Below are positions 27,696-61,890 of a stretch of 64,000 bases of DNA, piece by piece. The translations under genes were made by a program, and so were the position numbers. The notes beneath the pieces are model-generated. The model was given only the letters and a program-made list of their open reading frames with translations, was not told the origin of the DNA and did not search any database. The stretch spans positions 279,707-343,706 of the forward strand of contig CAWKPB010000001.1 in the NCBI GenBank assembly GCA_963851405.1, in the 5' to 3' direction. Positions within the stretch are counted from its first letter, which is position 1. Each line of letters starts with the position of its first letter. The stretch is from an uncultured Actinomycetota bacterium (GTDB taxonomy: Bacteria > Actinomycetota > Actinomycetes > DATJPE01).

Positions 27696-27923
27696 GGGTG
27701 CCCTCCTTCATACGTCTGGGGGCGACGTACGTCGGATGCGGATGGTGGCCCGTCGGTCTTCGATCGAGGCTCTCGGGGCGGAGGCGCGCGTGGCGCGCAT
27801 CCTCCCGAAGGCCACTACCGAGGACCGACCGCCGCCGGTCGGTGCATCCGGCCTACGCGATCGCCCCTGGTGGGGGATGGTGCGGATAGTGCGGGTGGAA
27901 CGAGTAGCGCTGTGGGCGCAGGA
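27696..27923 (-). promoter_or_regulatory. rpsO-pnp intergenic leader with strong stem-loops (candidate rpsO terminator and pnp autoregulatory/RNase III hairpin) plus the pnp ribosome-binding site
   Basis: Inverted repeats accgaccg-ccgc-cggtcggt and ggaggcgcgc-gtg-gcgcgc(at)cctcc are read from the sequence. The position is analogous to the E. coli pnp leader. Confidence 0.4.
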
Positions 27924-29331: not shown

Positions 29332-29664
29332 TCAGCGGCTCTTCGTCAGGTCGACCGCCAGGCTCAGGGCGACGGTGTCGCCCACGTGCAGGTCCTCCGC
29401 CTGGCGCACGAAATCCTTGATCGGGACGACGTAGCCCCCGTCCTTGGGAAACAGAGAGGTGGACCACTTGGTCTCCCCCGCCTCTGCCCTGACTGGGATC
29501 ATTCCCCAGCCGTAACTGACCAAAGAAGAGACCGCGTCCAGCTCGGCAGCTTCGGCATCAGGGACGGTGACGAAGTGATAGGGCGCGGGACCGCGCCACG
29601 ACCAGAGCAGGCCAGTGAACCTCAGACGCACGAGGCCAGCGTACGAGCCCTGGACTCGCGTCAC
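29332..29664 (-). CDS. DUF1905 domain protein
   Basis: It is 110 aa with PYHFVTVP and TKWSTSLFP motifs. It overlaps the truB stop by 4 nt. Confidence 0.6.
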   Translation of the reverse strand: MTRVQGSYAGLVRLRFTGLLWSWRGPAPYHFVTVPDAEAAELDAVSSLVSYGWGMIPVRAEAGETKWSTSLFPKDGGYVVPIKDFVRQAEDLHVGDTVALSLAVDLTKSR

Positions 29665-30575
29665 GCGGGAGTGAGGACGACCAGAGTGCGTAGCCAGCCG
29701 TCCCTTGGTTCCATCACCGCCACGGCGTGACCGTCCGGAGCGAAGGCCCCCGTCAATCCGGTCTCCCCCGACAGCTCCAACCGACCACCGTGCGCCACGC
29801 TCCTCGCCTGCTCCTCATCCAGCTCCCGCCGGGGGTATGTCAGGTCCACGACCGCGTCGACGGGCACGAACGACCATGACCGCTCGAGCTGCTCCAGCGT
29901 GAGCGCCGCGTCCAGTCCGAACGGCCCGACGCGGGTGCGCCGCAGCGCCGTCAGGTGACCCCCGACTCCGAGACTCTCCCCAAGGTCGCGCGCCAGCGCT
30001 CTGACATACGTGCCCGTCGAGCACTCGACGACCACATCCAGGTCAATCGGCTCGCCCGGATCGGAACGTCGGACCTCGACCACGTCGAAACGGGTAACCG
30101 TGACGGAGCGGGGTGCCAGTTGTACGTCTTCACCGGCGCGAACCCGCGCGTAGGCGCGCTTCCCCTCCACCTTCACGGCGCTGACCGCAGACGGGACCTG
30201 ATCAATCGATCCGGTGAGCGACGCGACGGCCTCCGCCAATCCGTCGTCGGTCACCGCCGCCAAGGACGAGGGACTGGCCGACGCGACCACATCACCTTCG
30301 GCGTCATCGGTGACCGTCGACGCACCGAGCCTGATCGTGGCCAGGTAGCTCTTGTCAGTCAGCGCGAGGTGCCCCAACAGCTTCGTGGCACGCTCGATCC
30401 CCAAGACGAGGACCCCGGTCGCCATCGGGTCGAGCGTGCCGGCGTGACCGACGCGTCTCGTGCCTGCCAGCCGCCGAACCCGACCCACGACATCGTGCGA
30501 GGTCCAGTCAGCTGGCTTGTCGACCACCACCACTCCTGGCGGAGGCGCCGGTCGCGCAGTTGAGGCCACGCTCAA
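29661..30575 (-). CDS. truB: tRNA pseudouridine(55) synthase
   Basis: The catalytic-Asp motif GHAGTLDP is present in 304 aa, with a PUA-like C-terminus. Confidence 0.9.
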
Positions 30576-31051
30576 CCCCTCGAGAGGCCTGGTTCGTCCG
30601 CCTCGTCCGCCTCGTCCGCCTCGTCCAGCTCGCGCGGCGCTCGATAGGGGTCGGCTTCGCCCGCGAACGTGGCGCCAGCCGCCGCAGCATGGACCTGCTC
30701 ATCGGCCGCCTTGGCCTCCACCAGCAGATCTTCGATGATCCGCGCATTCTCGGGAATGGCGTCAGCGATGAACGCCAGCGAAGGCGTGTGGCGAACACCT
30801 GTCTGGCGACCCACTTCGCTGCGCAGCACCCCCTTGGCACTCTCAAGCGCGGTCGCAGTCAACGCGCGCTCCTCGTCAGAGCCGTACACCGTGTAGAAGA
30901 CCGTGGCCTCTCGCAGGTCGTTGGTGATGCGCGTGTCGGTGACCGTGACGAACCCCAGCCGCGGGTCCTTGACCTTGGTTTCGAGCGTCTCCGCCACGAT
31001 GACCTTGATCCGGTCGGCGAGCTTGCGAGCCCGAGCTTCATGCGCGGTCAT
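30572..31051 (-). CDS. rbfA: Ribosome-binding factor A
   Basis: It is 159 aa with a KH-like RbfA core and a C-terminal acidic tail containing (DEA) repeats. Confidence 0.85.
30594..30629. repeat. Tandem 9-nt repeat (tcgtccgcc x3 plus one degenerate copy) encoding [10 protein letters not shown] at the RbfA C-terminus
   Basis: The repeat is read directly from the sequence. Confidence 0.8.
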
Positions 31052-31344
31052 GCGTCCTCCTCGGAGTGGAATCGGCGCCTGGCCGACAGCAGGTCGATCT
31101 CGGGGCGGGCAGCGACCAACCGTTCGCAGGCATCGAGGATCTCGACACAGTGTGCTTGGTCGGGTGCCACCACCGCGACCCCGAGCAGAGCTCGCCGATG
31201 TAGATCGAGGTAGCCGGCCTCGGCCGCCGCAACCTCGAAGCGCCGCCGCACCTCGGCCACGATGGGCCGCACCACGGAACGCTTCTCCTTCAGCGAGTGG
31301 ACGTCACCGAGCAGCAGATCGAGACTGAGCACCCCGACGAACAC
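31048..31344 (-). CDS. DUF503 (YlxP-like) protein
   Basis: The conserved LHLPGxxSLKEKR-like motif reads [13 protein letters not shown]. The probable start is GTG 31344; the longest ORF reaches 31404. Confidence 0.7.
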
Positions 31345-31408
31345 AGCCTCACCGCCTTGCCCTCTGGTCGTGGGTCCGATGACCGGCCCCTGCGCGTCTT
31401 GCATCCGA

Positions 31409-31516: not shown

Positions 31517-34271
31517 CTAGCTTCGAGGCTTTTCTCTCATCTCAAAGGTCTCGATAACGTCGTCGGGCTTGATGTCGTTGTACGACCCGAGGCCGATGCC
31601 GCACTCGAAGCCCTCTCGCACCTCCGTCGCATCGTCCTTGAACCGCTTGAGGGAGTCGATGGTGAGGTTGTCGGCGACGACCACACCGTCGCGAATGAGC
31701 CGAGCCTTGGAGTTGCGGACGATGGTGCCACTGCGCACCAACGAACCGGCGATGTTGCCGAACTTCGAGGAACGGAAGACCTCTCGCACCTCGGCCGAGC
31801 CGAGCGAAGCCTCCTCGAACTCCGGCTTGAGCATGCCCTTGAGGGCCGCTTCGATGTCATCGATGGCCGCGTAGATGACCGAGTAGTAGCGCACGTCGAC
31901 GCCCTCACGATCGATCAGGTCACCCACGCGCTCGGCCGGTCGGACGTTGAAGCCCAAGATGACTGCGTTCGACGCGACCGCGAGGTTGACGTCGTTTTGC
32001 GTGATGGCCCCGACGCCACGGTCGATGACCCGCAAGGAGACCTCTTCGCCGACCTCGATGTTGAGCAGTGCGTCCTCGAGCGCCTCCACCGAACCGGAGA
32101 CATCGCCCTTGAGGATGAGGTTGAGCGTCTCGGTGCGACCCTCTTCGAGGGACTTGAACAAGTCCTCGAGCGTACGACGACCCCTCCGCTTGGCCAGCTC
32201 CGCGTTGCGCTCGCGGGCGGACCGACGCTCGGCGATCTGGCGAGCGACCCGGTCCTCGGGAACGACGAGGAAACTGCCCCCGGCGTCGGGAACCGAGGTC
32301 AGACCGAGCACCAGAACCGGCGTCGCGGGACCCGCCTCTTCCAGGGTATTGCCGTGCTCGTCGAGCATGGCCCGTACCCGGCCGAAGGCTTCACCGGCGA
32401 CGATGGAATCTCCGGAGCGCAGCGTCCCTCGCTGGACCAGCACGGTGGCCACCGGCCCGCGGCCGCGGTCGAGGTGAGCCTCGATCGCCACACCCTGCGC
32501 GTCCTGCGACGCGTTTGCGCGCAGGTCGAGCGAAGCGTCAGCGGTCAACAGCACGGCGTCGAGCAGCGCCTCGATGTTGAGTCCCTCGCGCGCAGAGACG
32601 TCCACGAACATCGTCTCGCCGCCGTACTCCTCGGCGACCAGCCCGTATTCCGTGAGCTGGCCTCGGACCTTCGCGGGGTCAGCGCCTTCCTTGTCGATCT
32701 TGTTGACCGCGACCACGATCGGCACGTTGGCCGCCTGGGCGTGGTTGAGCGCCTCGATCGTCTGCGGCTTCACACCATCGTCGGCCGCAACGACGAGAAT
32801 CGCGATGTCGGTGACCTTGGCTCCACGGGCACGCATGGCGGTGAACGCCTCGTGTCCGGGGGTGTCGATGAAGGTGATCGTCGGTCGATCCTCGTGCAGG
32901 GTGCACCTGGTAGGCGCCGATGTGCTGGGTGATCCCACCGGCCTCGGCCTTGACGACGTCGGTGTTGCGGATCGCGTCGAGCAGTCGAGTCTTTCCGTGG
33001 TCGACGTGACCCATGACGGTGACGACCGGCGGACGGCTCACCAAGGTCGTCCTCGTCGCCTTCGTTCGCCTCCGAACTCAAGGTCGAACGACTCCAGCAG
33101 CTCGCGGTCTTCGTCTTCGGGGAGACGACTGGACGTCGAAGTTGAGCTCGGCACCCAACAGCGTGCAGGGTGTCGTCGTTGACCGACTGCGTCGCGGTCA
33201 CCATCTCGCCCAGGTTGAACATGATCTGGACGAGCGAGGCCGGGTTGGCATTGATCTTCTCGGCGAAGTCGCTGAGAGAAGCGCCGCGCGGCATCCGAAC
33301 GGTTTCGCCGTTGCCGCGAGGAGCCATCACGCCGCCGATCGTCGGCGCCTGCATGTTGTCGAACTCTTGACGCCGCTGCTTCTTGGACTTGCGGCCGCGG
33401 GTCGGACGTCCGCCGGGACGACCGAACGCGCCAGCCGTGCCGCCGCCGCGTCCGCGGTTGCCGCCACCGCCTGGACGACCCGAGAATCCGCCGGGTCGGC
33501 CGGCATAGCCACCGCCACCACCACCGCCGGCGCCACCGCCACCCGGGGCGCCCGGCCGGCCGCCGTACGCCGGACGGGAACCACCGGAGCGCCGCCACCT
33601 GGGCCGGGCGCGTCCACCGGGACGGCCGCCGGGAGCGCCCGGGCCTGCGGGGCCGGGGCGCGTGGGCATCATGGCCGGATTCGGCCGAGGTCCGCCTGGG
33701 CGCGGGGCGCCGGGGACTCCCCCGGGCCGAGGCCCGCCGGGGCGCAGCGCCGTCCGCGGGACGGGCGAGGCGCGGGCGCCTGCCATGCGCGAGGCGGAGC
33801 TGAAGGGGTTGTTGCCGGGGCGCGGAGCACCAGCCGGACGAGGCGTGGGACGCGCTGGCGCGCTGGCGGCCGGAGCAACCGGTGCCGCAGGGGCGGCGGG
33901 CCCGGGAGTGGGCGGCGACCGTGGGGGCAGGCGGAGGGCCCGGTGATGCCGGCTGGCGTTGGCGCGGACGGCGTTGGAGGCGCCACGGGTGCTTGGCCGC
34001 CAACTCGTCGGCCGCGGGGACCTGAGGAGCTCGGGCGGTCAGCTCGGCCGCGGCCTTCTTCGCGGCCTGTCGCCTTCTTCGCCGGGGCGGCGGCGCTTCG
34101 TCGCCTGGGCGGCGGGGCGGGGAAGGCCTCCTTCAGCTTCTTGACGACCGGCGCCTCGATGGTGGAGGACGCCGAACGGACGAACTCCCCCATGTCTTGC
34201 AGCTTGGTCACGAGGACCTTGCTCTCGACGCCGAGCTCTTTCGCGAGTTCATAGACCCGGACCTTGGCCAC
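31517..34271 (-). pseudogene. infB: Translation initiation factor IF-2 (infB), reading frame broken into at least 4 frames, probable homopolymer indel errors
   Basis: IF-2 segments sit in different minus-strand frames. The N-terminal domain ([15 protein letters not shown]...) is on ORF 33669..34271. The G/P-rich linker plus [18 protein letters not shown]...SVNDDTL is on 32770..33786. [19 protein letters not shown] is on 33038..34003. The G1 motif [17 protein letters not shown]...GAYQV is on 32679..33044. [12 protein letters not shown] through the C-terminus is on 31517..32938. Confidence 0.8.
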
Positions 34272-34378: not shown

Positions 34379-34675
34379 TCACGTTGGTGGTGCGTGCAGG
34401 GTCGTGCGCTTCTGTCGATTGAGCTGGTCTTCCGCTGGCCGCACCGCAGCCGGGTCCGGGGACTCGCTCAGGCGCAGGGCCCGGGCGAACGAACGACGAC
34501 TGATGGCGAGCTCGAGGCAGGTGGTCGTGGAGTGGATGTACGCCCCGCGACCGGGCTGTAGCGCCCGGGCATCGGGGAGCAGAACTCCATCGACAGCCAC
34601 AACGCGCAACAGGTCAGATTTGGCGACCTTCGAACGGCACCCGACGCACGTGCGTTGAGGGCTGATGAGGGCCAC
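34379..34675 (-). CDS. YlxR/DUF448 family protein (nusA-infB operon)
   Basis: It is 98 aa with the RTCVGCR zinc-ribbon-like motif and sits between nusA and infB. Confidence 0.75.
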   Translation of the reverse strand: MALISPQRTCVGCRSKVAKSDLLRVVAVDGVLLPDARALQPGRGAYIHSTTTCLELAISRRSFARALRLSESPDPAAVRPAEDQLNRQKRTTLHAPPT

Positions 34676-34710
34676 CGAAGATCCGGCGCCGCCGAGTCTA
34701 CCTTGCTCGC

Positions 34711-35757
34711 TCAGTCCCCCACGCCCTCGGCTCGCGCATCCGGCATGGGAGGCGCTTCGCCGTTGGCTCCGGCTGGCCCGTCCTCGACCGGAGACGGGGC
34801 ATCGGAGCGGATATCGATGCGCCAGCCGGTCAGCCGCGCGGCCAACCGGGCATTTTGGCCCTCTTTCCCGATCGCCAAGGACAGTTGGTAGTCAGGCACG
34901 GTCACGCGAGCCACGCGGGCCTCCAGGTCCACGATCTCCACGTGTTGGACCTTCGCTGGCTGGAGCGCCTCCGCAACGAAGGACGCAGGATCCGCGGACC
35001 AATCGACGATGTCGATCTTCTCGCCGTGGAGCTCGGTCATCACGGCCCGCGCCCGCGCACCCATGGGGCCGATGCAGGAGCCCTTGGCGTTGACGCCCTG
35101 CCGGTTGGAGCGCACAGCCAGCTTGCTCCGGTGACCAGCCTCTCGGGCGATGGCCACGATCTCCACCGTTCCGTCCGCGATCTCGGGCACCTCCTGCGCA
35201 AAGAGTTTTCGGACCAGGTTCGGATGAGTGCGGGACAGCCCCACCTGCGGACCTCGAATCCCCTTTCGAACGGCCACGACGTAACACTTCAGCCGCAGAC
35301 CGTGCTCGTATTTCTTCCCGGGGACCTGCTCCTGCGCCGGGAGAAGGCCCTCGAGTTTGCCGAGGTTCACCATCACGTCGCGGGGGTGGCTGCCCTGCTG
35401 GATCATGCCGGCGACGATGTCGCCTTCCTTGCCATGGAACTCGCCGAACATCTGCTCGTCCTCGGCATCTCGCAATCGCTGCAGGATGACCTGCTTGGCC
35501 GTTGTGGCGGCGATCCGTCCGAAACCGTCGGGGGTGTCGTCGTACTCGCGCAGGACCGACCCGTCTTCGGCGAGTTCCGCCGCTAGGACCGTGACGTGAC
35601 CGGTCCCCCGGTCCAACTGCACACGACCCTTGGGCTGGGAGCCTTCCGTGTGGTGGTAGGCGACCAACAGCGCCGCTTCGATGGCCTCAACGAGAAGATC
35701 GAGGGACACGTCCTTTTCGCGCACCATGCCGCGCAGGGCATTCATGTCGATGTCCAT
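34711..35757 (-). CDS. nusA: Transcription termination/antitermination factor NusA
   Basis: An N-terminal domain, S1 and two KH domains are present. ATG 35757 (MDIDMNAL...) lies 1 nt after the rimP stop. Confidence 0.9.
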
Positions 35758-35758
35758 G

Positions 35759-36244
35759 TCAGCCTGCCTCTCCGTCGACTGCGGGATCGGTTCGATTGAA
35801 CTCAACCTGAACCTGGGCGCGACGCACCTCGGAGTACGCGAACCGACGGTCGCGGCCCTCGACATCCAGGTCGACCCCAGTCGGGTCGGCCGCCTCGACG
35901 CGACCCACTGTGCTTTCCCCGGTCGTCCATTCGATCTTCACCAAACGCCCCACGGCTCGCCGCCAGTGCTTCGGCTCGGTCAGCGGGCGATCGACCCCTG
36001 GAGATCCCACCTCAAGGACGTACGGCTGCTCGCCGAGCACATCCGTTGCGTCGAGGGCTTCCGACACCCGGCGGGAAACATCCGCCACGTCGTCGAGCGA
36101 GACCCCACCGTCCTTGTCGACCGCGACCCGAACCACTCGGCGCCGCCCAGCCGGGGTGATGGCGACACTGTCGAGATCAAGCCCTGAGGCCGCGACAACC
36201 GGCGACAGAAGGGCCACGAGCTGCTCGGTGGTTGCGACGCTCAT
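35759..36244 (-). CDS. rimP: Ribosome maturation factor RimP
   Basis: The proposed start is ATG 36244 ([13 protein letters not shown]...); the longest ORF reaches 36598. It sits in the conserved position upstream of nusA. Confidence 0.8.
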
Positions 36245-37309: not shown

Positions 37310-38052
37310 GCAATCACGCCCGAGCAATAGAGCCTGCGTCCATCTACCGCCAAGCGTCGATGAGCGGCATGAGTTCGTCGAGGGTCTGAACCACCGCATC
37401 CGGGTCCCCCTCGACGCGCCCCCGCTGCTCTGGGGGGATCACCGAGTGCGGCACCAGGACGGCCCGCATCCCCACTTCCTTCGCACCGTGCACGTCCTCG
37501 AAGGGTCGGTCGCCGACGAAGACGCACCGTGACGGGGTCGTCGACGCCCAGCGCGTCTACCACCGACAAGAAGGCCTCGGGGTGGGGCTTGGCCCAAGGG
37601 ATCTCACTGGAGAAGACCGCGGCCGTCACGAGGTGGAGCACGCCATCACGAGCGAGAACTGCCTCGTGGTAGTCGCGCGTCCACAACGTGTTCGACAAAA
37701 TCCCGACCAGTACTCCACGATCGCGCAGGCCCTCGAACACAGAGATCACGTGAGGGTCAGTCCAGGTGTGCGGGTCCCAGGCCTCCTGATACGCCGACAG
37801 GGCCTCCTCGTGTCGGGACCCGTACGGCTCGATGCCCACGGAGGTCAAGACATCGTCCAGCGTGCCTGACCTCTGATGCTCTCGGGCCTTGGCCCAGGTC
37901 AACGCTTCGGCTTCGATGAGTTGCCCGGCCAATTCGTCGGCGCGCAACGGGTCGTAGACGGTCGTGTAGGCCCGCCAGATCTCTCGAATGTCGAGGGTGT
38001 GCCAGGGCGTCAACGTGCCACCCCAGTCGAAGATCACTGCATCGACGCCCAT
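37300..38052 (-). CDS. HAD-superfamily hydrolase with an apparent single-base frameshift near 37534-37537 (C4 run on the coding strand); the authentic C-terminus continues in another frame to about 37344
   Basis: Motif I reads VIFDWGGTL. The alternate frame after ALGVDD gives SRCVFVGDRPFEDVHGAKEVGMRAVLVPHSVIPPEQRG...LIDAWR*, a complete HAD C-terminus. Confidence 0.65.
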   Translation of the reverse strand: MGVDAVIFDWGGTLTPWHTLDIREIWRAYTTVYDPLRADELAGQLIEAEALTWAKAREHQRSGTLDDVLTSVGIEPYGSRHEEALSAYQEAWDPHTWTDPHVISVFEGLRDRGVLVGILSNTLWTRDYHEAVLARDGVLHLVTAAVFSSEIPWAKPHPEAFLSVVDALGVDDPVTVRLRRRPTLRGRARCEGSGDAGRPGAALGDPPRAAGARRGGPGCGGSDPRRTHAAHRRLAVDGRRLYCSGVIAQA

Positions 38053-39800: not shown

Positions 39801-39890
39801 CCGCAAGATCAAGGGGAGCTCCTTGTGCCGGGCTGGGAGCCCCGAGGATATCCGGGCCGACGCTGTTCGCCGACTGGATAACCTGCGGTC

Positions 39891-40397
39891 ATGCCCGATT
39901 CGCCTCCCGCCGCGCCCTTCACCCCCTTCGTCCCCGACTGGTTCGACGTCCCGCGGCGGCTCGAGACCCCCCGGTTCGTCCTGGTGCCGCTGGGCGCCGA
40001 ACACAACGAACGCGACTACGAGGCGTGGACGACCAGCATGGAGCACATTCACGCCACTCCCGGGTTCGAGACGCACCGCTGGCCGCACCCGATGACGCTC
40101 GAAGAAAACCTCGGTGACCTGGTTCGCCATGAAGAGGACTTCGCGCAGCGTCAGGGCTTCACCTACACCGTCCTGAGCCGCGCTCCAGGCACAGAGCCCA
40201 CAGAGATCGTCGGCTGCCTCTACATCTACCCGGGCGATCCGCACACCGGAGGCCGCGAGACAGTCGACGCTCGCGTGCGCTCATGGACCCGAGCCAGTCA
40301 TGCCGCCCTCGACGTCGAGGTCTGGCGAGCGGTCAACACGTGGCTCGCCGAGACCTGGCCGTTTCGCCACGTGTCGTACGCCCCTCGTCCGGGCTGA
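39891..40397 (+). CDS. GNAT-family N-acetyltransferase (RimJ/RimL-like)
   Basis: It is 168 aa with the [16 protein letters not shown]-terminal motif typical of Acetyltransf_3. Confidence 0.55.
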
Positions 40398-40532
40398 CGA
40401 AGACCCCCTCGCCAGCCGCGAAAGCCGCGAAACTGTCCGATCACGGCCCTGATTCGGGCTGCTTCCCGACCTTCGTAGCTGAAGCCCGAAAGACGCCTCA
40501 ATACGGTCGAACTGCAGGTCGACACACCTTGG

Positions 40533-41495
40533 GTGGCGGGAATGACTAGGTGTCGGATCGGGGCGCGTGCGGTCGGCACGGTGGGGGCCACTGCACTGGC
40601 CGTTGCCGCGGCGCTGTTTGGAGCTGCCCAGGCGCAGGCTGAACCGTCGACTGAAGCGCCGGCTGGGGCAGCCACGACGGCACTACCGGCTCCGGTGCCC
40701 TGCGCGCCCACCTGTTGGCGCCCCGATCTCGACACGAGCTGGCAGTGGAAGCTCAATGCCCCCCCGACCAGGAAGCAGATCGACTCGACCAAGGTCGAAC
40801 TGTGGGATGTCGACGGCTTCGAGACCACGACATCGAAGGTCGCCCGGATCCGGCAGCACAGCGCTGCGGTCTGCTACCTCTCGGCCGGGTCCTACGAGGC
40901 TGGCAGACCCGATGCCACGGACTTCCCAGGAGCTGCCCAAATCCGCAAGAAGACAGGTGCGCACGAAACTCGCGAGATCATCGGCTGGAAGCTGGACGGG
41001 TGGAACGAGCGCTGGCTGGACATCCGGGGGATCAACAAGGCGGGCAGCTCGCTCGCCGCGATCATGACGGCCAGGATCGAGATGTGTCGGGACAAGGGTT
41101 TCGACGGAATCGAGTTCGACAATGTCGACGGGTACACCAACAAGACCGGGTTCCCGCTGACCGGCAAGCATCAGCTCAGCTTCAACATTTGGCTCGCCAA
41201 CACGGCGCACGCCAACGGCCTCGCAGCGATCCTCAAGAACGACGTCGGCCAGATCCCACGGCTGCTGCCGTATTTCGATGCTGCGCTGAACGAACAGTGC
41301 TGGCAGTACCGCGAGTGCACGACCAAACGGAACGGAGCCTTCGGCTACGACCAGTTCGTCGACGCGGGCAAGGCCGTCTTCGGTGTCGAGTACCAGGGAT
41401 CCCGGCAGTCCTTCTGCCCGAAGGCGAACGCGCAGAACTTCAACTGGCTGGAGAAACGGATGGCCCTGGGGAGTTGGCGGAAGTCCTGCCGATGA
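40533..41495 (+). CDS. Secreted glycoside hydrolase family 114-like protein (endo-alpha-1,4-polygalactosaminidase-like)
   Basis: A signal peptide is followed by a TIM-barrel-like domain with WQWKL, YLSAGSYE and GFDGIEFDNVD motifs characteristic of GH114/PF03659. Confidence 0.55.
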   Translation: MAGMTRCRIGARAVGTVGATALAVAAALFGAAQAQAEPSTEAPAGAATTALPAPVPCAPTCWRPDLDTSWQWKLNAPPTRKQIDSTKVELWDVDGFETTTSKVARIRQHSAAVCYLSAGSYEAGRPDATDFPGAAQIRKKTGAHETREIIGWKLDGWNERWLDIRGINKAGSSLAAIMTARIEMCRDKGFDGIEFDNVDGYTNKTGFPLTGKHQLSFNIWLANTAHANGLAAILKNDVGQIPRLLPYFDAALNEQCWQYRECTTKRNGAFGYDQFVDAGKAVFGVEYQGSRQSFCPKANAQNFNWLEKRMALGSWRKSCR

Positions 41496-41618
41496 CCGGC
41501 CACCACCGTTCTGGTGTGTCTCGCGAACAGACCAAATACCGAATCACCCTGCTGGGCTTGGGGAGCCCATGGATCTCGATGCGGTGCGGAGGACGGTCGT
41601 TGCGGCGGTCGGGGCGAT

Positions 41619-60814: not shown

Positions 60815-61054
60815 CTACCGCTCGTCCGCGTCGAGGAAGTCCACGCGCACCGGACGCCCGGGGGTGACTGCGCCAAGAACCGCCCGCAGCGCCTTGGCCG
60901 TACGCCCGGACCGACCGATGACCTTGCCCATGTCGTCAGGGTGGACGCGGACCTGCAGCACCCGACCGCGCCGCAGTTCGCGATCACGGACATCGACGTC
61001 GTCTGGGTGTTCGACGATTCCCTTGACCAAATGCTCGAGCGCCTCAGCCAGCAT
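60815..61054 (-). CDS. KH-domain RNA-binding protein (Rv2908c-like)
   Basis: It is 79 aa with the KH core GKVIGRSGRTAKALRAVL. It lies between rimM and rpsP as in other actinobacteria. Confidence 0.8.
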   Translation of the reverse strand: MLAEALEHLVKGIVEHPDDVDVRDRELRRGRVLQVRVHPDDMGKVIGRSGRTAKALRAVLGAVTPGRPVRVDFLDADER

Positions 61055-61710
61055 CAGGACTTCTCGGCCTCGGTCGCGTCGGTCGCTTCTCCTTCGACGA
61101 CCTCGATGACCTCAACCGCATCAGTGACATCGCCCTGGGCGTCAACGACGACCTCTACGACGTCTTCGACGATCACCTCGGCGTCCTTGGTCTCGATCAC
61201 CTCGACGACCTCATCCACGATCACGGCCCCGCCATCCGGTGTCTCGGCAACCTCAACGACCTCGATCACGTCGACGACCTCAGCGGACTCGGCCGAGGCG
61301 TCGGTCTTGGCGGCCTTGGCCGGCTTCGAGGCCTTCTTCTTCGGAGTGGTCGCGGCGCCCTGCTCCTCGAGAGACTCCTTGGCGGCGGCTTCGAACATGG
61401 CCTTCTTGTTGGCCCTGGGTTCGGCGACGCGAAGCGTGCCTTCGGCGCCGGGCTCGCCCCGGAACTTCTGCCAGTCGCCGGTGACGCGAAGGATGGCTGC
61501 GACCGGTTCGGTCGGCTGAGCGCCGACACCCAACCAGTACTGCGCGCGATCGGAGTCCACGACGATGAGCGACGGGTCCTCCTTGGGGTGGTAGGTCCCG
61601 ATCTCCTCGATCACCCGTCCATCGCGCTTGGCGCGGGCGTCGGCCACGATGATCCGGTACTGCGGGTCGCGCTTCTTGCCTAGGCGCTTGAGTTTGATCT
61701 TGACAGCCAC
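61054..61710 (-). CDS. rpsP: 30S ribosomal protein S16 with a long acidic C-terminal extension
   Basis: GTG 61710 ([20 protein letters not shown]...) is proposed. The core of about 110 aa is followed by about 100 aa of V/E/D/A-rich quasi-repeats. Confidence 0.85.
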
Positions 61711-61890
61711 GGGTGAAACCGCTCCTTGCTCGATGGGGGCGGAAGACGACACGGCGCGTGGGGTTGCGCGATGCGGACCTTCCAGGGTGGACCTGACACG
61801 AGGCGGGTAGAGGGCCGCGTCGCGCCAGTTCGACGGGCCTAGTGTGCCAGAGCGAGTGGCCCTAGACGAAACCGAGTCTTCCTACGGCGG

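What the first reader, a model, noticed from the sequence alone, without database searches (positions are those of the whole stretch)
31517..34271. infB (IF-2) is fragmented across at least four reading frames while all neighbouring essential genes are intact
The conserved IF-2 blocks (N-terminal domain, Gly/Pro linker plus KKQRRQEF...[24 protein letters not shown], the G1 motif [10 protein letters not shown]...[17 protein letters not shown] to the C-terminus) lie consecutively on ORFs 33669..34271, 32770..33786, 33038..34003, 32679..33044 and 31517..32938. These are in different frames. Local amino-acid conservation is near perfect on both sides of each break. That pattern indicates recent +/-1 indels rather than decay. 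IF-2 is essential, so the most likely explanation is homopolymer indel error in this G/C-run-rich stretch, especially the GGGG-rich linker. A genuine pseudogene is possible only if a second infB exists elsewhere.
Basis: seen in the sequence. Interest (0 to 1): 0.55.

Follow-up and report, generated by a model that had tools for sequence, protein, structure and literature searches.

The report
infB broken by assembly indel errors
The essential translation factor gene infB really is chopped into several reading frames here, but the breaks look like a local patch of insertion/deletion errors in a long-read metagenome assembly rather than a dead gene.

Summary
Observation confirmed and more severe than described. 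infB (minus strand, 34271..31517) lies in its normal nusA-ylxR-infB-DUF503-rbfA-truB operon. Reading it as one IF-2 needs at least 7 frame corrections (alignment optimum 11). All fall between 34107 and 32875. The first ~165 nt and last ~1.39 kb are clean. Stitched together, the pieces give a 913-aa protein matching the IF-2 equivalog model end to end.

The breaks are almost certainly not biological:
- dN/dS against the closest intact relative is 0.055 in the broken part and 0.056 in the intact part.
- Window-specific substitutions are not elevated; only indels are.
- The gene is essential and sits at its syntenic locus.
- Four related Nanopore/Flye-type contigs carry 1-3 frameshifts at other positions in the same gene. 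Short-read and isolate assemblies of relatives have one open ~915-970-aa ORF.
- A second conserved gene 3.3 kb away (HAD hydrolase) has an isolated +1 base.

The homopolymer mechanism does not: the resolvable indels sit in runs of 1-2 bases (one possibly in C4-5), and five breaks lie outside the G/C-rich linker. The clustering (about 1 indel per 100 nt against 1 elsewhere in the window) suggests a local consensus or polishing failure. Reads are needed to prove it. Low interest.

The parts
31517..34271 (-). infB (translation initiation factor IF-2), complete in content but split over the three minus-strand frames
   Evidence: The stitched 913-aa product hits TIGR00487 at 767 bits over profile 6-584/587.
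34108..34271 (-). N-terminal IF2_N block ([14 protein letters not shown]...EAFPAPPP), in frame, with no indel relative to relatives
   Evidence: dN/dS vs L082 is 0.12.
32875..34107 (-). Indel-dense block that holds every frame break of the gene (minimum 7 events, alignment optimum 11)
   Evidence: Clustering statistics.
33400..34067 (-). Pro/Ala/Gly-rich hypervariable linker, 81% GC. It has at least 1 net frame change and 6 in the optimal alignment. Exact indel positions are ambiguous because relatives differ in length here.
   Evidence: Short tandem repeats at 33508-33576.
34074..34115 (.). 22-nt tandem near-repeat (1.9 copies, 90% match) that coincides with the first frame breaks. 22 is not a multiple of 3.
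   Evidence: Window-specific insertions at 34107, 34098 and 34070.
33163..33163 (-). Extra C (CTGCA[C]GCTG), absent from L081/L082/L087. It shifts the frame between SVNDDTL and [11 protein letters not shown].
33118..33129 (-). Two 1-nt deletions. One is a G missing after 33129 (CCAGGTC becomes CCAGTC). The other is the third base of the Pro codon, missing between 33119 and 33118. They bracket the VVSP codons.
33045..33068 (-). Two 1-nt insertions (near 33067 and near 33045) flanking the acidic variable patch between EFG and LVSRPPVV
32875..32903 (-). Last frame break, in the variable loop between GAYQV and [10 protein letters not shown]. It is either one extra base plus a 6-nt shorter loop, or three deletions of 2, 2 and 1 nt.
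31517..32902 (-). Intact 3' part (G2-G4 motifs, domains II and C-terminal domains). It has no indel against three relatives. The source assembly's own gene call (P0002, 439 aa, 100% identical) starts inside it at MRARGAKV.
   Evidence: dN/dS is 0.056.
37344..38052 (-). HAD-family hydrolase gene with one extra G at 37528/37527. It is 709 nt against 708 nt in three relatives, and its last ~60 residues are in another frame. This is an isolated indel elsewhere in the same contig.
34379..35865 (-). Upstream operon genes nusA (34711-35865) and ylxR/DUF448 (34379-34675), both intact
29661..31404 (-). Downstream operon genes DUF503 (31048-31404), rbfA (30572-31051) and truB (29661-30575), all intact

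Best explanation
This is the organism's single, normally functional infB gene. In this assembly, a ~1.2-kb stretch (34107-32875) carries a dense patch of small consensus insertion/deletion errors.

The most likely origin is a long-read (Nanopore-type) metagenome assembly whose consensus or polishing failed locally. The failure sits around the hypervariable, 81% GC linker of IF-2. Possible causes are too few usable reads there, or collapsed or cross-mapped reads from co-occurring related strains that differ in linker length. Either would leave near-raw-read indel density (about 1 per 100 nt), while the rest of the contig is polished to about 1 indel in 60 kb.

Shown: the breaks exist, they are indel-only, selection on the gene is unrelaxed, and the same class of defect recurs at different positions in related long-read contigs.

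Inferred: the sequencing technology of this particular contig, and the specific cause of the local failure.
For: 1. After frame correction, codon substitution patterns are the same in the broken and intact parts: dN/dS 0.055 over 189 codons against 0.056 over 453 codons.
2. Window-specific substitutions are not elevated in the broken part (19 in 557 columns against 69 in 1354). Indels are 5-8 against 0 (Fisher p = 8e-4 to 2e-5).
3. Nucleotide identity to the three relatives is the same inside and outside the block.
4. The stitched protein is a full-length IF-2 by TIGR00487, in the canonical operon with intact neighbours.
5. Related contigs with Flye-style 'contig_N' names carry frameshifts in the same gene at other positions: L081 has 3 and L087 has 1. 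Two MFD MAGs do too: L005 has 3 and L009 has 2. L081 also has split proS, nusA and ribF.
6. MFD MAGs are Nanopore-only metaFlye assemblies polished with a single Medaka round (PMC12313526).
7. Relatives from short-read assemblies (L085 from JGI, L086 from a k141 MEGAHIT-style contig) have one open ORF of ~950 aa. So do some long-read contigs (L082-L084).
8. Among 64 loci from genome contigs, a truncated in-frame upstream ORF was seen only in 3 of 8 MFD MAGs and in 0 of 56 others (Fisher p about 0.001).
9. A second conserved gene in the window (HAD) has an isolated +1 base.
10. There is a published precedent: collapsing alleles that differ in internal repeat length introduces frameshifts and indel errors into a consensus (PMC8445201).
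Against: - No reads are available, so nothing is proven at base level.
- The window's source record could not be identified. Exact look-ups of four of its proteins found nothing. Its sequencing technology is therefore inferred from relatives and from the 510-kb contig length attached to P0002.
- The clustering is extreme: 11 events in 1.2 kb against 1 found in the rest of the 64-kb window. The other affected contigs show only 1-3 events.
- Five or six events lie in ordinary 65% GC, non-repetitive coding sequence, where long-read consensus is normally good.
- The ~60 other genes have full-length domain matches, so this is not a generally poor assembly.
Confidence: 0.9

Rival explanations
1. Genuine, very recent pseudogenisation of the syntenic infB. 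Translation initiation would be served by a second infB copy elsewhere in the genome, or the sequence would come from a non-viable lineage or relic DNA.
For: The frame breaks are really in the deposited sequence. The HAD gene could equally be a real pseudogene. The rest of the genome cannot be inspected.
Against: - IF-2 is essential in bacteria (established knowledge).
- The broken copy sits in the canonical operon. No second infB-like sequence is present in the 64-kb window; only low-complexity linker hits appear.
- dN/dS is 0.055, identical to the intact part. Neutral decay long enough to gather 7-11 indels should bring many tens of substitutions, mostly nonsynonymous, yet substitutions are not elevated.
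- Neutral indels should also hit the 3' half. P that all 11 fall in 1165 of 2755 nt is about 8e-5.
- The same defect class appears at different positions in other long-read contigs of different species. That would require repeated independent pseudogenisation of an essential gene.
Confidence: 0.03
2. Classical homopolymer-length miscalling in the G/C-rich linker, is the sole cause.
For: The linker is 81% GC with GGN/CCN repeats. Six of the 11 modelled frame changes lie in it. In L081, L087 and L009 the frameshifts are confined to the linker. The deletion at 33119 may be a C5-to-C4 change.
Against: Five or six events lie downstream of the linker, in 65% GC non-repetitive sequence. Their contexts are single bases or 2-base runs. 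The longest conserved homopolymer nearby (GGGGG at about 34190) is read correctly. Homopolymer error alone does not explain a sharply bounded 1.2-kb block.
Confidence: 0.05
3. Biological recoding: programmed ribosomal frameshifting, or a naturally split IF-2 expressed as separate polypeptides.
For: E. coli infB naturally yields shorter isoforms from internal starts (own knowledge). Many database IF-2 entries from this lineage are '613 aa'.
Against: The 613-aa entries are gene-caller truncations: the ORF is open for ~950 aa in the underlying DNA. Close relatives have a continuous ORF at every position where the window is broken. Seven to eleven shifts of mixed sign with no shared slippery motif is incompatible with programmed frameshifting. 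The largest piece starts after the P-loop (G1), so it could not be a working GTPase.
Confidence: 0.005

Closest known systems
Gene-fragmenting indel errors in long-read (Nanopore/PacBio) assemblies
   Same: Small insertions and deletions split conserved genes into adjacent ORFs in different frames, while amino-acid conservation on both sides stays intact. They are seen preferentially in Nanopore-only MAGs (PMC12313526; PMC12007338). The related contigs L081, L087, L005 and L009 show the same defect.
   Different: Published profiles stress homopolymers and a roughly genome-wide scatter. Here 11 events are packed into 1.2 kb, mostly outside homopolymers, in an otherwise clean contig.
Consensus artefacts from collapsing divergent haplotypes or strains
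   Same: In a collapsed Trypanosoma assembly, ORF truncations arose from internal repeats of different length between alleles, and from nearby variants that caused wrong read alignments and indel errors (PMC8445201). The IF-2 linker is such a length-variable internal repeat. Several related species or strains co-occur in the same samples: L081 and L082 both come from ERZ25039539.
   Different: That case is a diploid eukaryote and this is a metagenome. Strain heterogeneity at this locus is inferred here, not shown.
Bacterial IF-2 (infB) of Actinomycetota, in the nusA-infB-rbfA-truB operon
   Same: Domain order is the same: IF2_N, Pro/Ala/Gly linker, second IF2_N, G domain, domain II, C-terminal domains. 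Synteny and the equivalog-model match also agree.
   Different: It is not a single ORF in this assembly.
Programmed frameshift genes (prfB, dnaX) and real pseudogenes of reductive genomes
   Same: The coding sequence continues in another frame.
   Different: Programmed sites are single, conserved across relatives and tied to a slippery motif. Real pseudogenes show relaxed selection and scattered lesions. Neither holds here.

Membership tests
Bacterial translation initiation factor IF-2 (infB) | Full-length match to the IF-2 equivalog model above its curated cut-off | tested here: met
   The stitched 913-aa protein scores 767 bits on TIGR00487 (cut-off 424) over profile 6-584/587. The separate ORFs hit profile positions 6-58, 84-131 and 132-584.
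Bacterial translation initiation factor IF-2 (infB) | GTPase motifs G1 (GHVDHGKT) and G3 (DTPGH), plus the IF-2 C-terminal domains | tested here: met
   Both motifs are visible in the translation. The precomputed Pfam domains of P0002 include PF00009, PF11987 and PF22042.
Bacterial translation initiation factor IF-2 (infB) | Canonical operon context rimP-nusA-ylxR-infB-(DUF503)-rbfA-truB | tested here: met
   tblastn of L082 proteins against the window; Pfam YlxR hit.
Intact (functional) gene as assembled | One uninterrupted ORF from start to stop | tested here: not met
   At least 7 frame corrections are needed, 11 in the optimal alignment.
Genuine pseudogene | Relaxed purifying selection (dN/dS rising toward 1) and excess substitutions in the disabled gene | tested here: not met
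   dN/dS is 0.055 in the broken part and 0.056 in the intact part. Window-specific substitutions are 3.4% against 5.1% of columns.
Genuine pseudogene | Lesions scattered along the gene | tested here: not met
   All lesions lie in 34107-32875 and none in the last 1386 nt. P is about 8e-5.
Genuine pseudogene | A functional paralogue elsewhere, since IF-2 is essential | not testable with these tools
   There is no second infB in the 64-kb window. The rest of the genome could not be retrieved.
Programmed ribosomal frameshift / recoding | The frame change is conserved at the same site in relatives | tested here: not met
   L082-L086 have a continuous ORF. The indels are window-specific in the 4-way DNA alignment.
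Long-read consensus indel artefact | Indel-only discrepancies against close relatives, with a normal substitution pattern | tested here: met
Long-read consensus indel artefact | The same class of defect recurs at different positions in independent long-read assemblies and is absent from short-read or isolate assemblies | tested here: met
   L081, L087, L005 and L009 carry 1-3 frameshifts each. L085 and L086 are intact. The count is 3 of 8 MFD MAGs against 0 of 56 other loci.
Long-read consensus indel artefact | This contig was itself assembled from error-prone long reads, and the reads disagree with the consensus at the indel sites | not testable with these tools
   The source record was not found. 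The only clue is the 510-kb contig length, with NCBI and ENA as sources, for P0002.
   Of the six events placed exactly, five are in runs of 1-2 bases. One (33119) may be in a C4-5 run.

The most novel reading that the evidence does not exclude
The indels are real. The syntenic infB of this uncultured actinobacterium would have been inactivated very recently by a burst of small indels confined to its 5' half, for example through localised error-prone repair. The cell would then rely on another IF-2 gene, or the contig would represent a non-viable or relic-DNA lineage.
Probability: 0.03. Interest if true: 0.6.

Novelty: not a real feature. Interest (0 to 1): 0.08.

Why it matters
As biology it does not matter: the organism almost certainly has a normal IF-2. 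It matters for data quality.
- The source annotation keeps only a 439-aa C-terminal fragment (P0002) of an essential marker gene. That affects completeness estimates, marker-gene phylogenies and pseudogene counts for this MAG.
- The IF-2 linker appears to be a recurrent weak spot of Nanopore-only metagenome consensus in high-GC Actinomycetota; five independent contigs are affected here.
- Even in correct assemblies, gene callers often truncate IF-2 to 613 aa at this linker.
- Only if the indels proved real would this become a remarkable case of losing the canonical copy of an essential gene.

Tried and rejected
- A naive GC3-phase plot to find frameshifts across the window was too noisy. I replaced it with a codon-usage Viterbi segmentation. 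Its flagged places were then checked by translation and Pfam. Only infB and HAD were truly frameshifted. The other flags were adjacent genes in the same frame (trmD/rplS, rpsP/KH/rimM, yraN/comM, rnhB/DUF2469, clgR/tetR).
- Attempts to identify the window's own source contig by exact protein look-up failed. I tried P0002, PNPase, Frr and S15. The cluster look-up gave no accession.
- A regular-expression test for the N-terminal motif across 64 loci was too narrow. I used the length of the in-frame upstream ORF instead. This cannot see compensated double shifts, so the count of 0 of 56 is a lower bound.
- The frameshift-aware alignment of L064 failed because the gene end was wrongly set. L064 is counted as broken only from its 113-aa upstream ORF and its out-of-frame N-terminal motif.
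- A plain tblastn of full-length IF-2 ran through the shifts as one low-identity HSP, so it was not used for mapping.
- I looked for a change in nearest relative across the block as a sign of a chimeric join and found none.
- I looked for one methylation-type motif shared by the indel sites. CTGCAG and CCAGG occur at two sites but there is no common motif, so the idea was dropped.
- The idea that the 613-aa IF-2 entries mean a naturally short or split IF-2 in this lineage was rejected: the ORF is open upstream in the DNA.

Full report
**What is there**

The minus strand of 31517-34271 encodes IF-2. It sits in the standard actinobacterial operon, between nusA/ylxR (34379-35865) and DUF503/rbfA/truB (29661-31404).

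NCBIfam's IF-2 equivalog model (TIGR00487) hits three of the ORFs at complementary positions: 6-58, 84-131 and 132-584 of 587. A protein stitched across the frame breaks (913 aa) matches it at 767 bits over positions 6-584. The gene content is therefore complete. Only the reading frame is broken.

**How broken**

The closest relatives found are 91-93% identical in protein over the C-terminal part. They lie on ENA metagenome contigs.

One of them, L082, has an uninterrupted 915-aa IF-2. A frameshift-aware protein-to-DNA alignment of that protein to the window needs 11 frame changes, all between 34067 and 32903.

A four-way DNA alignment (window, L081, L082, L087) places the window-specific indels in conserved sequence:
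- an extra C at 33163
- a missing G after 33129
- a missing base at 33119/33118
- extra bases near 33067 and near 33045
- a net +1 (one to three events) in 32903-32875

In the linker (33400-34067) the relatives differ in length, so events cannot be placed exactly. At least one net shift is required there, and the optimal alignment uses six.

My conservative count is 7 events and the optimal count is 11. The first ~165 nt and the last 1386 nt have none.

**Is the rest of the window clean?**

Mostly. A codon-usage segmentation flagged several places. I checked these by translation. I also ran tblastn of the relatives' proteins against the window and Pfam scans of 40 ORFs.

About 60 genes have full-length matches. 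There is one exception. The HAD-family hydrolase gene (38052..37344) is 709 nt against 708 nt in three relatives, with an extra G at 37528/37527. This puts its last ~60 residues in another frame.

The contrast is stark: about 1 indel per 100 nt in a 1.2-kb block, against one detected elsewhere in the window (binomial P about 1e-18).

**Real or artefact?**

Several independent lines point to an artefact.

1. After frame correction, dN/dS against L082 is 0.055 for 189 codons in the broken part and 0.056 for 453 codons in the intact part. Selection is not relaxed.
2. Window-specific substitutions are no more frequent in the broken part (19 in 557 columns) than in the intact part (69 in 1354). Indel events are 5-8 against 0 (Fisher p between 8e-4 and 2e-5). 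Identity to each relative is the same inside and outside the block. A mutational process that makes many indels and no extra substitutions, in half of an essential gene, is not what decay looks like.
3. The same class of defect recurs at other positions of the same gene in other contigs of the same assembly style. L081 has 3 frameshifts and L087 has 1. L005 has 3 and L009 has 2. L081 also has split proS, nusA and ribF.
4. L005 and L009 are Microflora Danica MAGs. These are Nanopore-only metaFlye assemblies polished with one round of Medaka (PMC12313526). L081, L082 and L087 have Flye-style contig names and come from ENA assemblies.
5. Relatives from short-read assemblies (L085, L086) have a continuous ORF of about 950 aa.
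6. Among 64 loci from reference genomes, a truncated upstream ORF was seen in 3 of 8 MFD MAGs and in none of 56 others (p about 0.001). The caveat is that compensated double shifts would be missed.
7. The isolated extra base in the HAD gene shows that this contig carries sporadic single-base indels elsewhere.

**Mechanism**

- Five of six sit in runs of one or two bases.
- They lie in ordinary 65% GC coding sequence downstream of the 81% GC linker.

The sharply bounded, near-raw-read indel density suggests a local failure of consensus or polishing. Two causes seem plausible: too few usable reads across the linker, or collapsed or cross-mapped reads from co-occurring relatives that differ in linker length.

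Two observations fit the second cause. Related species co-occur in single samples: L081 and L082 both come from ERZ25039539. Collapsing alleles with length-variable internal repeats is documented to create frameshifts and indel errors in a consensus (PMC8445201).

This sub-mechanism is inference. I could not retrieve the source record or its reads.

**Rivals**

- A genuine pseudogene needs a second infB (none in the window), an indel-only burst confined to the 5' half, and repeated independent occurrence in other species. I give it about 3%.
- Programmed recoding is excluded by the lack of conservation.
- A naturally short or split IF-2, suggested by the many '613-aa' database entries, is a gene-calling artefact. 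In the underlying DNA the ORF is open to the canonical N-terminus. The caller instead accepts an antisense shadow ORF of about 195 aa in the linker.

**Verdict**

The artefact interpretation is right in kind but wrong in mechanism. The finding is not a biological feature, and interest is low. It is useful as a warning about this MAG's annotation and about the IF-2 linker as a weak spot for long-read consensus and for gene callers.

Noticed in passing
window 37344-38052 (-), extra G at 37528/37527: The HAD-family hydrolase gene is frameshifted by a single extra base. It is 709 nt against 708 nt in three relatives, and its conserved C-terminal ~60 residues continue in another frame.
   Followed up: yes
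L083-L086 (e.g. L086 4936-7842) and proteins P0003-P0073: Dozens of public IF-2 entries from this lineage are exactly 613 aa and start at an internal Met (MQAPS...). In the DNA the ORF is open for ~950 aa. Gene callers truncate it and call an antisense ~195-aa shadow ORF inside the GC-rich linker instead.
   Followed up: yes
L081 (ERZ25039539 contig_21508), L087, L005, L009: Other long-read contigs of related Actinomycetota also have 1-3 frameshifts in infB, mostly in the linker. L081 additionally has split proS, nusA and ribF. The IF-2 linker looks like a recurrent error hotspot in Nanopore-only MAGs.
   Followed up: partly
protein P0001 (777 aa, ENA contig of 4.4 kb): This IF-2 entry contains a tandem duplication of ~164 residues of the G domain ([15 protein letters not shown]...TGIDQLL appears twice, with a few differences). 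It is probably a misassembly.
   Followed up: no
window 34074-34115: A 22-nt tandem near-repeat (1.9 copies, 90% match) lies exactly where the first frame breaks of infB occur. Its length is not a multiple of three. It could be a consensus duplication artefact or part of the natural PAKK repeat.
   Followed up: partly
window 27752-27829 (-): Actino-pnp RNA (Rfam RF01688, 60 bits, full length) lies between rpsO and pnp, as expected for Actinomycetota. It was the only Rfam hit in the window.
   Followed up: no
window 39886-41500 compared with L082 600-3100: The gene content between proS and the next conserved gene differs from relatives. The DUF4081/acetyltransferase gene present in L081 and L082 has no counterpart in the window, while the GH114 gene and a 168-aa ORF are shared with L082.
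   Followed up: no
window 61054-61752 (-): Ribosomal protein S16 has a long acidic C-terminal extension rich in V/E/D repeats (VVEVIE...), giving a 232-aa ORF.
   Followed up: no
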